Of a stretch of 64,000 nt of DNA, positions 26,038-30,115 are shown piece after piece; position 1 is the stretch's first letter, and each line of letters opens with the position of its first letter. Source of the stretch: a candidate division FCPU426 bacterium. Lineage in GTDB: Bacteria; Oederibacteriota; PGYV01; Palsa-1178. Position numbers and translations under genes: made by a program. The DNA is taken from assembly GCA_963840035.1 (NCBI GenBank), contig CAWIXE010000001.1, positions 1,152,001 through 1,216,000 on the forward strand, given 5' to 3'. The notes under the pieces were generated by a model. It made no database searches and had not been told where the DNA came from. It was given only the letters and a program-made list of their open reading frames with translations.

Positions 26038-26039
26038 TT

Positions 26040-26170
26040 AATTTTGAATTTTCAATTTTATATTTTCAATTGGAGATAATACCCGGTTGCCTTTATTCGA
26101 TGTTATTAAACTAACAGCATGTTGGCTATTTTACTATTAATTGAAAATATAAAATTCAAAATTGAAAATT
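26040..26170. repeat. Inverted heptamer-repeat element, family A, copy 2
   Basis: Arms 26040-26071 and 26139-26170, 30/32 inverted match. Confidence 0.88.
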
Positions 26171-26177
26171 ATCCCTA

Positions 26178-26266: not shown

Positions 26267-29200
26267 ATGGCTTTCAGCTATAACCTTAACATAAACGATG
26301 AAGAGACAAAAACCGCCATTAAAGACTTATATGGGGCGGAATCCACGGATGAGTTCTTCTCATCTGTTAAGTTCAATTCCCTTGAGTTCGCAGACAATGA
26401 AAGCGGCGAGATACTCGTAAAAATGGACGTTTTTAAGCCGTTTAACACAGCCCAGCTCGAGAAATTCGGGGCCTATATCCTCAAATCAGCCAATAAAACA
26501 CCTGTATTCCGTTTTAATTTCTCTAAAGATATGAAACCAGCGGCTATTATAAGCTCTTTCTGGCCCTTTTTTAAGGAACTGCCGGGCGTTGAAAAGACGT
26601 GGCTTGATTACGCTGTGGCTGAAGAAAAAGATGGCGCTGTAGTCGTTAAATGTTTTACGGACCTGGCTTACACAAAAATAACGGAAAAGAAAGCAATTCA
26701 GCAGTTAAAGAAGAAAATGGCGGAGTTTGGCGGCGGGCCCGTGGAAGTTGCCGTTGAAGTGGCTGAAAAGACCGAGGCCGATAAGAAGCCGGTAAATATT
26801 GTAAGGACCATGGAAGTCGCGAAACCCAAAGTCCCGCCCAGCAAGATACTTAAGGATGAGGAAATACCCGGAGAAAAAATAGCCCTTGAGAATATACTGG
26901 GTAAGGGCAAGTATGTCATAGAAGGCAGGGTCTTTGTCGCGGATGAAAAGAAGTACTGGCGTGACATGCAGGGCAGGGAAGGCAATAACGCGAAAATAAT
27001 ATTTTTTTATATGACAGATGAAAAGGAAACCATAAAACTTTCATGCTGGCTTGATGATGATGACGGATTATTTAACGCGATAAAGGACATAAAATATGCA
27101 AGGGTCCTTATTGAGGCGGATTATTACCCCAATGAGATGGAGATAACCGGCAGGGTCAAGAAAATGCAGCTGACAAAAGAGCCGGTTATGGCTGATACGG
27201 CACCGGAAAAAAGGGTGGAACTCCACGCCCACACGCAGATGAGCGCCATGGACGCGCTTATGAGCGTGAAGCAGTACTTAAGGACAGCCGCGGCCTGGGG
27301 GCACCCGGCAGCCGCCATAACAGACCATGGAGTCGTGCACTCATACCCGGAAGCGTATCAGATAGTAAACGACAGGAAATCACCCCTCGCGCTGAAGCTG
27401 ATACTCGGCATGGAAGGCTATCTTATGGAACAGAACATTAAGATAGACAGGGAGGATAAGGATGGGGAAAAATTCACGGAAAAACCTTTTCATATGGTAC
27501 TGCTGGTAAAAAACAGCGCGGGCCTGCGCAATCTCTACAGGCTGGTATCGCTTTCGCACCTGGAGCATTTTTATAAGAAACCTAACATTCCCCGTGAACT
27601 TCTGATGAATAACAGGGAAGGGCTGCTCGTCGGGTCCGCGTGTTATTTGGGAGAGGTTTACCAGGCTATACTTAACAGGAAAACCCCGGAGGAAATAAAA
27701 CAGATAGCTTCGTTCTATGATTACCTTGAGATACAGCCAAATGAAAATAATAAGTTCTTAATCAGGTCGGGCAGGGTGGATTCAGAGGACAGCTTAAACG
27801 CCATAAACATGCAGATATGCGCCCTCGGCGCCGAACTGGGCAAGCCTGTGGTCGCCACCGGCGATGTGCATTTTTTAAAACATGACGATAAGATCTACAG
27901 GGAAGTAATAATGTCGGGCCAGGGATATGATGATATCGGAGATACGGGTACCGCGGACTTATCCTTCAGGACCACGGATAACATGCTAAAAGAATTCATG
28001 TACCTTGGTTCGGAAAAGGCCCATGAGGTCGTGGTGAAGAACACCAGGTTAATCGCGGACATGATAGAGGCAAACATCAGGCCTGTGCCCAAGGATTTAA
28101 ACCCGCCAACCATAGATAACTCGGACGATGAGATAAGGGACGCTTCATGGAACAGGGCCGCTGAGATATACGGAATAAACCTTCCTGAGATAGTCAGGGA
28201 GCGGGTGGACAGGGAATTAAACGCCATCATAGGAAACAAGTATTCGGTACTTTACCTGATCGCTAAAAAAATGGTGGAAAAATCCAACAGCGACGGTTAC
28301 ATCGTAGGGTCCAGAGGCTCGGTTGGGTCTTCAATGGTGGCGTTCCTTTGCGGCATATCAGAAGTAAACCCCATGCAGGCGCACTATGTGTGCCCCAAGT
28401 GCCAGCACAGTGAGTTTGTCCATACCGACCTGGTAGGCGTGGATCTGCCGGAAAAGGCCTGCCCCGTGTGCGATGAAAAGACCGTTAGGGACGGTTTTAA
28501 CATTCCTTTTGAGACATTCATGGGGTTCAAAGGCGAAAAAGTGCCTGATATAGACCTTAACTTTTCCGGGGAATACCAGGAAAAGATACATAAATTCATA
28601 GTCGAGCTTTTCGGTTCGGACAAGGTCTTCCGCGCCGGCACAATAGGCACCATACAGGAAAAGACCATAAAAAAGGAATACATACCCAAGTATGAGGAAA
28701 AGACCAAAAGAAAGCTAAAGGAAGCGGACAAGGAACGCGTGGCCAAGGGGTGCGCCGGGGTAAAAAGGTCCACAGGCCAGCACGCGGGCGGCATGATGCT
28801 TGTGCCTAAGGCAAAGGACATATACGATTTTACGCCGGTCCAGAACCCGCCTAATGATTTTCAGACAATTACAACGCATTTTGATTATGAATACATACAC
28901 GACGCGCTGGTAAAAATTGACGCGCTCGGACATGACCTTCCGACAAGCTTAAAAAGGATATGTGAAGAGTTAAAAATTAACGTAAATGACATACCCTTAG
29001 ACGACAAGGACACCATGAAGCTCTTTTCCGGGGTGTCGGTGCTGAAGGTGGACCCGAAGAATTATACGCCGCCCATAGGCACGCTTGGAGTGCCTGAGTA
29101 CGGCACCAGGTTTACCAGGGAAATGCTCGCTATGACAAAGCCAAAAACATTCAGCGAGCTTGTATATGTGTCGGGGCTCTCCCACGGCACTGATGTGTGG

Positions 29201-29980
29201 CGCGGCAATGCCGAGGACCTCATAAAGAATAAGACCGCCACGTTAAAGGAAGTCATATCCGTCAGGGACGACATCATGACCTTTCTCATAGGAAAAGGCA
29301 TTGCCAAGGACGTCTCTTTCCAGATAACCGAGAGCGTCAGGAAGGGCAAAGGCCTGACCCCTGAATGGGAAGACATCATGAAAAAACACAAGGTGCCCGA
29401 GTGGTACATAGCGTCGTGCAAAAAAATACAGTACATGTTCCCGAAGGCGCACGCGGCCGCCTATGCCATAATGGCATTCAGGATAGCCTACATGAAAGTG
29501 CACCAGCCCCTCTATTTCTATTCTGATTATTTTAACAGGGACAAAGAGGGTTTTGAATATGATTTCGCCTTCATGGACATGAAAAAACTCGGCCACGCCA
29601 AGCGCGAGCTTGAGATGAAGATGCGCGAGAAAAAGGATAAAAGGCAGAACGCCAAAAAGGAAGAGGACCAGATAGGGGTGGTGGAGGTCATACTGGAAAT
29701 GAAGGAACGCGGTTTTGACTTCCTTAACGTGGATATTTATACGTCCGACCCGTTCTTGTTTACGGTTGACTCGGGTAAAATAAGGCTGCCGCTGACGATC
29801 ATCCCGTCGCTGGGCGGCGTGGTGGCTGAAGCCATAGCAAAAGAGCGGGTTAAGGATAAATTCAAGTCCATAGAGGATATTATCAAAAGGACGAGGATAA
29901 ATAAAAACGTTGCTGAATTCCTGAAGCTAAACGACATATCAGGATCGCTGCCGAACTCGGATCAGACAGAGCTTTTTTAA
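26267..29980 (+). CDS. polC: DNA polymerase III alpha, PolC type, lacking the exonuclease insert
   Basis: N-terminal + OB region, PHP ELHAHTQMS, GSRGSVGSS, Zn finger CPKC..CPVC, IPFETF.GF.G.KVPDIDLNFSGEYQ, YMFPKAHAAAY, C-terminal Q.ELF. Confidence 0.95.
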   Translation: MAFSYNLNINDEETKTAIKDLYGAESTDEFFSSVKFNSLEFADNESGEILVKMDVFKPFNTAQLEKFGAYILKSANKTPVFRFNFSKDMKPAAIISSFWPFFKELPGVEKTWLDYAVAEEKDGAVVVKCFTDLAYTKITEKKAIQQLKKKMAEFGGGPVEVAVEVAEKTEADKKPVNIVRTMEVAKPKVPPSKILKDEEIPGEKIALENILGKGKYVIEGRVFVADEKKYWRDMQGREGNNAKIIFFYMTDEKETIKLSCWLDDDDGLFNAIKDIKYARVLIEADYYPNEMEITGRVKKMQLTKEPVMADTAPEKRVELHAHTQMSAMDALMSVKQYLRTAAAWGHPAAAITDHGVVHSYPEAYQIVNDRKSPLALKLILGMEGYLMEQNIKIDREDKDGEKFTEKPFHMVLLVKNSAGLRNLYRLVSLSHLEHFYKKPNIPRELLMNNREGLLVGSACYLGEVYQAILNRKTPEEIKQIASFYDYLEIQPNENNKFLIRSGRVDSEDSLNAINMQICALGAELGKPVVATGDVHFLKHDDKIYREVIMSGQGYDDIGDTGTADLSFRTTDNMLKEFMYLGSEKAHEVVVKNTRLIADMIEANIRPVPKDLNPPTIDNSDDEIRDASWNRAAEIYGINLPEIVRERVDRELNAIIGNKYSVLYLIAKKMVEKSNSDGYIVGSRGSVGSSMVAFLCGISEVNPMQAHYVCPKCQHSEFVHTDLVGVDLPEKACPVCDEKTVRDGFNIPFETFMGFKGEKVPDIDLNFSGEYQEKIHKFIVELFGSDKVFRAGTIGTIQEKTIKKEYIPKYEEKTKRKLKEADKERVAKGCAGVKRSTGQHAGGMMLVPKAKDIYDFTPVQNPPNDFQTITTHFDYEYIHDALVKIDALGHDLPTSLKRICEELKINVNDIPLDDKDTMKLFSGVSVLKVDPKNYTPPIGTLGVPEYGTRFTREMLAMTKPKTFSELVYVSGLSHGTDVWRGNAEDLIKNKTATLKEVISVRDDIMTFLIGKGIAKDVSFQITESVRKGKGLTPEWEDIMKKHKVPEWYIASCKKIQYMFPKAHAAAYAIMAFRIAYMKVHQPLYFYSDYFNRDKEGFEYDFAFMDMKKLGHAKRELEMKMREKKDKRQNAKKEEDQIGVVEVILEMKERGFDFLNVDIYTSDPFLFTVDSGKIRLPLTIIPSLGGVVAEAIAKERVKDKFKSIEDIIKRTRINKNVAEFLKLNDISGSLPNSDQTELF

Positions 29981-29992
29981 GGGCAATTAATT

Positions 29993-30115
29993 AAGGCAAT
30001 TACTAATTACCAATTACTAAGTTACCAATAAAGGTGCGTGATCGCGTTTTATTATAATAATGCGTGAAAACACTCCTTGATTCGTAATTAGTCATTATAA
30101 ATTAGTAATTGCCTT
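29993..30115. repeat. Inverted heptamer-repeat element, family B (AATTACT/AGTAATT)
   Basis: AAGGCAATTACTAATT / AATTAGTAATTGCCTT is a perfect 16-bp IR with 7-bp periodic arms. Confidence 0.8.

What the first reader, a model, noticed from the sequence alone, without database searches (positions are those of the whole stretch)
26267..29980. PolC replicase without its proofreading exonuclease, in an apparently diderm genome
Seen: clear PolC signatures, but GMEGYL is joined to KPFHMVLLVKN by only ~22 residues (27407-27500), and the protein is 1237 aa. Known: canonical PolC (~1,400+ aa; Firmicutes, Tenericutes, Fusobacteria, Thermotogae) has a DEDDh 3'-5' exonuclease inserted in the PHP domain at this point. 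PHP metal ligands look retained (HAH, DH, E, H, C, DVH). Inference: proofreading is done by the PHP domain or by a separate DnaQ. This may be an ancestral-like or derived PolC subtype outside its usual range.
Basis: partly seen in the sequence, partly recalled or inferred. Interest (0 to 1): 0.7.

Follow-up and report, generated by a model that had tools for sequence, protein, structure and literature searches.

The report
Proofreader-less PolC fixed across Goldbacteria
This gene encodes an intact PolC-type DNA-copying enzyme that naturally lacks its usual built-in proofreading module and likely proofreads with its older metal-binding PHP domain; this form was described in 2014 in Clostridia, and what is new is that it is the only form found across an uncultured double-membrane lineage (Goldbacteria and FCPU426).

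Summary
Window 26267-29980 encodes a 1237-aa PolC with no DEDDh exonuclease. Only 25 residues lie between PHP ligands E383 and H409, against about 210 in canonical PolC. A contig from a public run bridges the junction with no differences, so this is not an assembly deletion.

The host groups with Ca. Goldbacteria and has BamA and LpxC. PolC is present in 79 of 99 genomes of its phylum, and all 79 lack the insert. The nine PHP ligands are intact in 48 of 48 checked. No DEDDh protein was found in 31 of the 79, which argues against a separate DnaQ. PHP proofreading is likely (about 0.65) but unassayed.

Exo-less PolCs are not one clade (AU p 7e-75), so repeated loss fits better than an ancestral form. 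The architecture is already published (6% of PolCs, Clostridia/Negativicutes). This scan found it before on other DNA, including a Goldbacteria-like genome. The host range and lineage-wide fixation are what is new. Side result: about 90% of genes here lie on the leading strand, but PolC-lacking relatives are strongly biased too.

The parts
26267..29980 (+). polC gene, 1237 aa, intact single ORF, on the leading strand
   Evidence: origin at dnaA C1:401651-402967
26267..26761 (+). N-terminal domain (residues ~1-165), two alpha/beta subdomains like PolC NI/NII; likely contacts the clamp loader
   Evidence: AlphaFold model from a 106-row alignment, mean pLDDT 89.8; ESM Atlas hits to PolC NI/NII/OB clusters, score 0.93-0.94; no Pfam hit
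26906..27172 (+). OB fold (residues ~214-302), N-terminal to PHP as in PolC
   Evidence: beta-barrel in the model; Atlas PF01336 clusters; aligns with 3F2B from residue 264
27212..27976 (+). PHP domain (~316-570) with nine metal ligands H320 H322 D329 H354 E383 H409 C459 D533 H535
   Evidence: D533 is Asn in 3F2B and 9QPC
27416..27490 (+). 25-residue loop at the site where canonical PolC carries its ~210-residue DEDDh insert
   Evidence: low-confidence loop in the model; bridged by a contig of run X1
28391..28471 (+). CPKC...CPVC zinc-finger motif (709-735)
   Evidence: weak Pfam Zn_ribbon_8, E 0.098; its being typical of PolC is recalled
28544..28921 (+). polymerase catalytic motifs PDIDLN (D761, D763) and KIDALG (D885)
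29714..29929 (+). tandem helix-hairpin-helix (1150-1221)
   Evidence: Pfam HHH_6
29963..29977 (+). C-terminal QTELF, likely sliding-clamp binding motif (DQxxLF in relatives)
   Evidence: sequence and alignment tails; the consensus clamp motif is recalled

Best explanation
This is the chromosomal PolC of a Goldbacteria-lineage diderm bacterium; it lacks the DEDDh exonuclease insert, likely through secondary loss, and likely proofreads with its intact PHP metal site while working beside a DnaE1-type partner. Shown: PolC identity and domain order, absence of the insert, all nine PHP ligands, a dnaE gene whose PHP ligands are also intact, conserved gene neighbourhood across Goldbacteria, and the same exo-less state in 79 of 79 PolC-bearing genomes of the phylum. 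Inferred mechanism: PolC is held on the sliding clamp by its C-terminal motif and does bulk synthesis. After a mis-insertion the primer 3' end would move into the trinuclear PHP site, passing the loop that now replaces the insert, and be trimmed there as in M. tuberculosis DnaE1. DnaE1 would extend RNA primers and proofread with its own PHP. Inferred history: an ancestor carried both PHP and DEDDh proofreaders, as most Clostridia do, and the redundant DEDDh was lost.
For: PHP motif HHDHEHCDH is intact in 48 of 48 phylum PolCs checked. It meets the 'active' definition in PMC12926913 (section 14). Across 371 scored PolCs the ligands are intact in 178 of 182 exo-less, 14 of 14 with a decayed insert, and 115 of 175 with an intact DEDDh. 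PF00929 is undetected in 31 of 79 PolC-bearing genomes, including 12 that are >=96% complete with <=2% contamination. [quoted passage not shown] PMC5636811 (passages) says the PolC insert sits in the loop that lines the primer path in Mtb DnaE1. It also says G. kaustophilus PolC, with one ligand changed, has no PHP exonuclease activity; that ligand is intact here (D533). One clade for all exo-less PolCs is rejected, p-AU 7e-75. At least 27 state changes are needed on the 372-row FastTree.
Against: I found no report of PHP exonuclease activity assayed in a purified PolC. The C. thermocellum phenotype could come from destabilisation, and that enzyme also has a DEDDh domain. The link between exonuclease loss and PHP retention fails a phylogenetically independent test: of 21 pairs about 3 went the expected way, 2 the other way and 16 did not differ, median p = 1. 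Four exo-less PolCs (plus one gapped row) have altered PHP ligands. Intact ligands are also common where DEDDh is present (115 of 175). Counts of changes cannot tell gain from loss, and the deep PolC tree is unresolved.
Confidence: 0.62

Rival explanations
1. The PolC PHP metal site is structural or has another role. This PolC does not proofread, and its errors are removed in trans by the PHP of DnaE1 or by mismatch repair.
For: The genome's DnaE has all nine PHP ligands. Proofreading in trans between the two replicases is reported for B. subtilis, in the other direction (PMC12926913 passages). The independent-pairs test is not significant, and 4 of 182 exo-less PolCs have altered PHP.
Against: The ligands are invariant across divergent classes of the phylum (48 of 48). 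The mutator phenotype of a PolC PHP-ligand mutant appeared despite DnaE1 being present. Mismatch-repair genes were not checked here.
Confidence: 0.22
2. A standalone DEDDh protein acts as an epsilon-like proofreading subunit for PolC.
For: The genome has two PF00929 proteins (C1:1025743 and C2:946459). All 7 other genomes of the family have at least one.
Against: Both best match PRK06195 below its cut-off (256 and 168 bits against 373) and fall below the TIGR00573 dnaQ cut-off; one also weakly matches DNA ligase LigA models at its C-terminus, which I read as a BRCT tail. Neither lies near polC or dnaE. 31 of 79 PolC genomes have no hit, including all of families f18 (0/11), f15 (0/4) and f3 (0/3). 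The f23 hit is oligoribonuclease by NCBIfam, and the one f17 hit inspected looks the same by sequence.
Confidence: 0.1
3. This is a primitively exo-less PolC that branched before the DEDDh domain was inserted.
For: Goldbacteria and FCPU426 PolCs fall outside the Bacillota group (89/97) in an unresolved deep region. The loop length resembles DnaE1 of T. aquaticus.
Against: Thermotogota, Fusobacteriota-labelled, Halanaerobiales and most Bacilli rows carry the insert at the same site. Losses are shown between close relatives (L072 exo+ and L090 exo-, 100/100). Two PolCs with decayed inserts group with FCPU426 rows at 94/98 in the 44-row tree, though this grouping is open in the 47-row tree.
Confidence: 0.08
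4. The gap is an assembly deletion or a pseudogene.
For: This assembly is indel-prone: 4 of 41 orthologue-like genes show a frame change.
Against: A contig from a public run matches across the junction exactly. 79 of 79 PolC-bearing genomes lack the insert. The ORF is intact.
Confidence: 0.01

Closest known systems
Naturally exo-less PolC of Clostridia and Negativicutes (PMC3919608; 6% of PolCs, 16% of PolC+DnaE1 systems)
   Same: NTD-OB-PHP-Pol3-(HhH)2 order without the insert; intact PHP; paired with a DnaE that has an intact PHP.
   Different: The host is a non-Bacillota diderm lineage. The state is fixed in 79 of 79 PolC genomes rather than patchy. Holding Goldbacteria together with five exo-less Bacillota rows is rejected (p-AU 0.005), but those five are not one clade themselves, so a single donor among them is not excluded.
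Canonical PolC (G. kaustophilus 3F2B, E. faecium 9QPC)
   Same: Same fold and motifs; best Foldseek hits 3F2B (E 2.5e-35) and 9QPC. The natural protein resembles the engineered exonuclease-deleted 3F2B construct.
   Different: No DEDDh domain; Asp rather than Asn at the eighth PHP ligand.
PHP-proofreading DnaE1 (M. tuberculosis, Thermus)
   Same: Nine-ligand PHP site and a loop of similar length at the same place (29 aa in Mtb, 18 in Taq, PMC5636811).
   Different: PolC-type architecture (N-terminal OB and NTD); activity not shown.

Membership tests
PolC (C-family) | Scores above curated PolC model cut-offs | tested here: met
   NF001688 1284 vs 873; TIGR01405 1181 vs 1043
PolC (C-family) | NTD and OB fold N-terminal to PHP; no DnaE-type C-terminal OB/CTD | tested here: met
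PolC (C-family) | Three catalytic aspartates | tested here: met
   D761, D763, D885
Canonical B. subtilis-type PolC | DEDDh exonuclease inserted in PHP | tested here: not met
   not filed under this type
Exo-less PolC variant (PMC3919608) | PolC with no insert in PHP | tested here: met
   25-residue loop; 16-33 residues in 48 phylum members
Exo-less PolC variant (PMC3919608) | Paired with DnaE1 rather than DnaE3 | tested here: inconclusive
   One dnaE with nine intact PHP ligands, which fits DnaE1; no DnaE tree was built; the gene has one frameshift in this assembly
PHP-exonuclease replicases (Mtb/Thermus DnaE1 type) | Nine ligands HHDHEH[C/H]DH | tested here: met
PHP-exonuclease replicases (Mtb/Thermus DnaE1 type) | Primer-guiding loop and beta-hairpin | tested here: inconclusive
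PHP-exonuclease replicases (Mtb/Thermus DnaE1 type) | Metal-dependent 3'-5' exonuclease activity | not testable with these tools
   needs a biochemical assay

The most novel reading that the evidence does not exclude
Goldbacteria and FCPU426 run a two-polymerase PolC+DnaE1 replisome with no DEDDh proofreader at all, relying only on PHP sites. Their PolC is an old, vertically kept lineage related to Fusobacteriota PolC rather than a Bacillota import (97 SH-aLRT in the quick tree; unresolved in the careful tree). That would push PolC back toward the last bacterial common ancestor. It would make the PolC-lacking sister lineages, still about 80% or more leading-strand biased, a natural test of the PolC-strand-bias idea.
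Probability: 0.3. Interest if true: 0.7.

Novelty: new member of a known kind. Interest (0 to 1): 0.4.

Why it matters
Surveys place PolC in four phyla (PMC3919608, PMC4070872, PMC11237797), and exo-less PolC almost only in Clostridia and Negativicutes. This adds a diderm lineage in which the exo-less form is universal and many genomes have no detectable DEDDh protein. Its PolC is a clean natural substrate for the open question of whether a PolC PHP domain proofreads, with no engineered deletion needed. The phylum also mixes PolC-bearing and PolC-lacking classes, which bears on PolC's origin and on its proposed link to gene strand bias.

Tried and rejected
Single-sequence AlphaFold gave an unusable model (pLDDT 33); it was redone with an alignment for residues 1-634. 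No RNA holder was listed, so expression is untested. The sequencing runs hold only small shares of the gene and say nothing about habitat.

An RpoB species tree (24 rows, quick tree only) left the order of the classes open. Gain versus loss of PolC within the phylum is therefore undecided. One clade for Goldbacteria plus FCPU426 PolC is neither shown nor rejected (p-AU 0.197). Both careful PolC trees used LG+G4 without a mixture model and their bootstraps had not settled. Negativicutes were not represented by labelled rows.

A search from the Hydrogenedentota-labelled PolC P0223 found no close relatives (best 44%), so its label is unconfirmed. The idea that strand bias tracks PolC within the phylum was rejected. 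DnaD-like PF07261 and RNase J TIGR00649 were not found in this 98%-complete genome. An Atlas look-up for P0293 did not complete, so its taxon stays unknown. No complex prediction was run.

Searches for prior print on PolC in this lineage found nothing relevant: 11 papers listed, one opened; 0 papers. The supplement of PMC12926913 had 0 hits for Goldbacteria, FCPU426 or Firestonebacteria, but the file was cut when stored. Subscription papers were not searched.

Full report
OBSERVATION. Window 26267-29980 is one 1237-aa ORF. It passes both curated PolC models. Pfam finds PHP, polymerase core, finger and HhH, but no DEDDh domain. It aligns without a break to the exonuclease-deleted 3F2B construct and in two pieces to full-length 9QPC. 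PMC12592400 (passages) confirms that the domain was removed from the G. kaustophilus protein. Between ligands E383 and H409 lie 25 residues, against about 205-240 in most insert-bearing PolCs. A contig of run X1 covers 27369-27519 with no differences; it is one low-depth contig. An alignment-based model of residues 1-634 (pLDDT 89.8) shows two N-terminal subdomains, an OB barrel and an unbroken PHP. Its best structural matches are 3F2B and 9QPC.

HOST. A close homologue (P0018, 60% identity over the searched region) is labelled Ca. Goldbacteria. It has the same length (1219 aa) as the PolC of a same-order genome (L012). Other families of the phylum carry NCBI labels FCPU426 (PolC present) and Firestonebacteria or Coatesbacteria (DnaE only) (6 of 10 look-ups gave a taxon). 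PMC7031533 (passages) places Goldbacteria next to Firestonebacteria and Elusimicrobia. The genome (98% complete, 3 contigs) has BamA next to lpxC. The polC neighbourhood (ptsI/galU upstream; glycosyltransferase, mgtE downstream) recurs in relatives, which fits vertical inheritance.

DISTRIBUTION. PolC was found in 79 of 99 genomes of the phylum, including 24 of 24 in the order. All 79 matches cross the junction without an insert. The 20 without PolC are 19 genomes of six families and one 66%-complete genome. The PolC model stayed below cut-off in 5 of 5 of them retested, one a single-contig genome. In 48 PolCs extracted from the phylum, the loop is 16-33 residues and the PHP motif is intact in all 48.

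PARTNERS. The only other C-family gene is dnaE on C2, with nine intact PHP ligands. It has a one-base frameshift. A ~91%-identical contig of run X2 lacks that base, relatives have open frames of about 1140-1210 aa, and 4 of 41 control genes in this assembly also change frame. An assembly error is therefore likely. Two standalone DEDDh proteins exist, but they are PRK06195-like and below the dnaQ cut-off. PF00929 is undetected in 31 of 79 PolC genomes.

MECHANISM. PMC12926913 (sections 14 and 23, passages) calls a PHP 'active' if it has HHDHEH[C/H]DH; this one does. PMC5636811 (passages) reports nine ligands and a primer-guiding loop in Mtb DnaE1, the loop into which PolC's DEDDh is inserted. 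It also reports inactivity of G. kaustophilus PolC, which has one ligand changed. A PHP Cys mutation in C. thermocellum PolC is a 30- to 178-fold mutator (bioRxiv 10.1101/2021.07.30.454558, passages). I aligned 381 distinct PolCs, dropped 9 fragments and left one gapped row unscored. Among the remaining 371, PHP was intact in 178 of 182 exo-less, 14 of 14 decayed-insert and 115 of 175 intact-insert proteins. Among the 138 cluster representatives alone the counts were 24 of 28, 14 of 14 and 56 of 96. Against this reading, the independent-pairs test was not significant, four exo-less proteins have altered ligands, and no assay exists. I put PHP proofreading at about 0.65.

HISTORY. With the loop columns excluded, one clade for all 22 exo-less rows of 44 is rejected, and 27 changes are needed on the large FastTree. 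Goldbacteria PolCs form a 100/100 clade outside a Bacillota group of 82/98 or 89/97. A quick tree joined Goldbacteria, FCPU426 and a Fusobacteriota-labelled PolC at 97; the careful tree left this open. Within the phylum, the groupings (f15,f18) and (f16,(f17,f23)) appear in both the PolC and RpoB trees. Secondary loss is likely because the insert sits at the same site in Thermotogota, Fusobacteriota-labelled and Bacillota rows, but the root was not inferred.

PRIOR KNOWLEDGE. PMC3919608 (passages, section 13, first part of section 23) reports that 6% of PolCs lack the insert, all in Clostridia and Negativicutes except one extra Thermotogae copy. It confines PolC to Firmicutes, Fusobacteria, Tenericutes and Thermotogae. 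PMC4070872 (abstract, section 11) and PMC11237797 (passages) list the same four phyla. My searches found no paper on PolC in this lineage. Earlier notes of this scan reached the same reading on other genomes; I looked at them only after my own tests.

STRAND BIAS. GC and AT skew and gene orientation switch at dnaA. With a crude ORF caller, 2491 of 2757 genes (90%) lie on the leading strand; contig C3 was oriented by its own skew. That exceeds the 85-87% quoted as the Bacillota maximum (PMC11237797, PMC3814617, passages). It does not track PolC. PolC-lacking G027 gives 253 of 318 (80%) from 20 evenly spaced 20-kb samples. Majority-strand shares were 0.93, 0.96, 1.0, 0.86 and 0.70 in five other PolC-lacking genomes, sampled on contigs chosen for housekeeping genes. 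They were 0.98, 0.92, 0.85 and 0.74 in four PolC-bearing genomes. The samples are small.

VERDICT. A real and intact exo-less PolC of a known kind, in a host lineage where I found no report of PolC. Interest 0.4.

Noticed in passing
G000 whole genome; origin near C1:401651-402967, terminus near C2:775000: About 90% of genes (2491 of 2757, crude caller) lie on the leading strand, with both G and A enriched there. PolC-lacking relatives are also strongly biased (G027 80%), so PolC does not appear to be required for the bias.
   Followed up: partly
L113:3758 (G000 C2, dnaE): One-base frameshift splits dnaE into 518- and 644-aa frames. It is absent in a related contig, and 4 of 41 control genes also show frame changes, so it is likely an assembly error.
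   Followed up: yes
window 26039-26171 and 29993-30115: polC is flanked on both sides by AT-rich inverted repeats (33-nt arms 94% complementary; 28-nt arms 86%), each with 67 nt between the arms. They give 185 and 35 blastn hits in the genome, so they are dispersed repeats.
   Followed up: partly
P0154, P0163, P0164, P0167, P0171, P0173, P0191, P0204, P0215, P0226, P0231, P0240, P0265, P0283: Fourteen PolCs keep a 142-291-aa insert that has lost DEDDh motifs. All have intact PHP ligands and may be intermediates of exonuclease loss.
   Followed up: partly
P0217, P0221, P0260, P0264, P0273: Exo-less PolCs whose PHP ligands are also altered, apparently with neither proofreader; it is unknown whether they are second copies.
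   Followed up: no
P0223: An insert-bearing PolC labelled Ca. Hydrogenedentota, another phylum without reported PolC. It is a singleton on a 16-kb contig and could be mis-binned.
   Followed up: partly
L138, L139, L140: PolC-lacking families f12 and f19 encode standalone DEDDh proteins; the two scanned (L138, L140) score high on the exonuclease part of PolC models (L140: E 5e-57). They may be ordinary DnaQ-like proteins or relics.
   Followed up: no
G000 genome: RNase J (TIGR00649) and DnaD-like PF07261, which accompany PolC in B. subtilis, were not found.
   Followed up: partly
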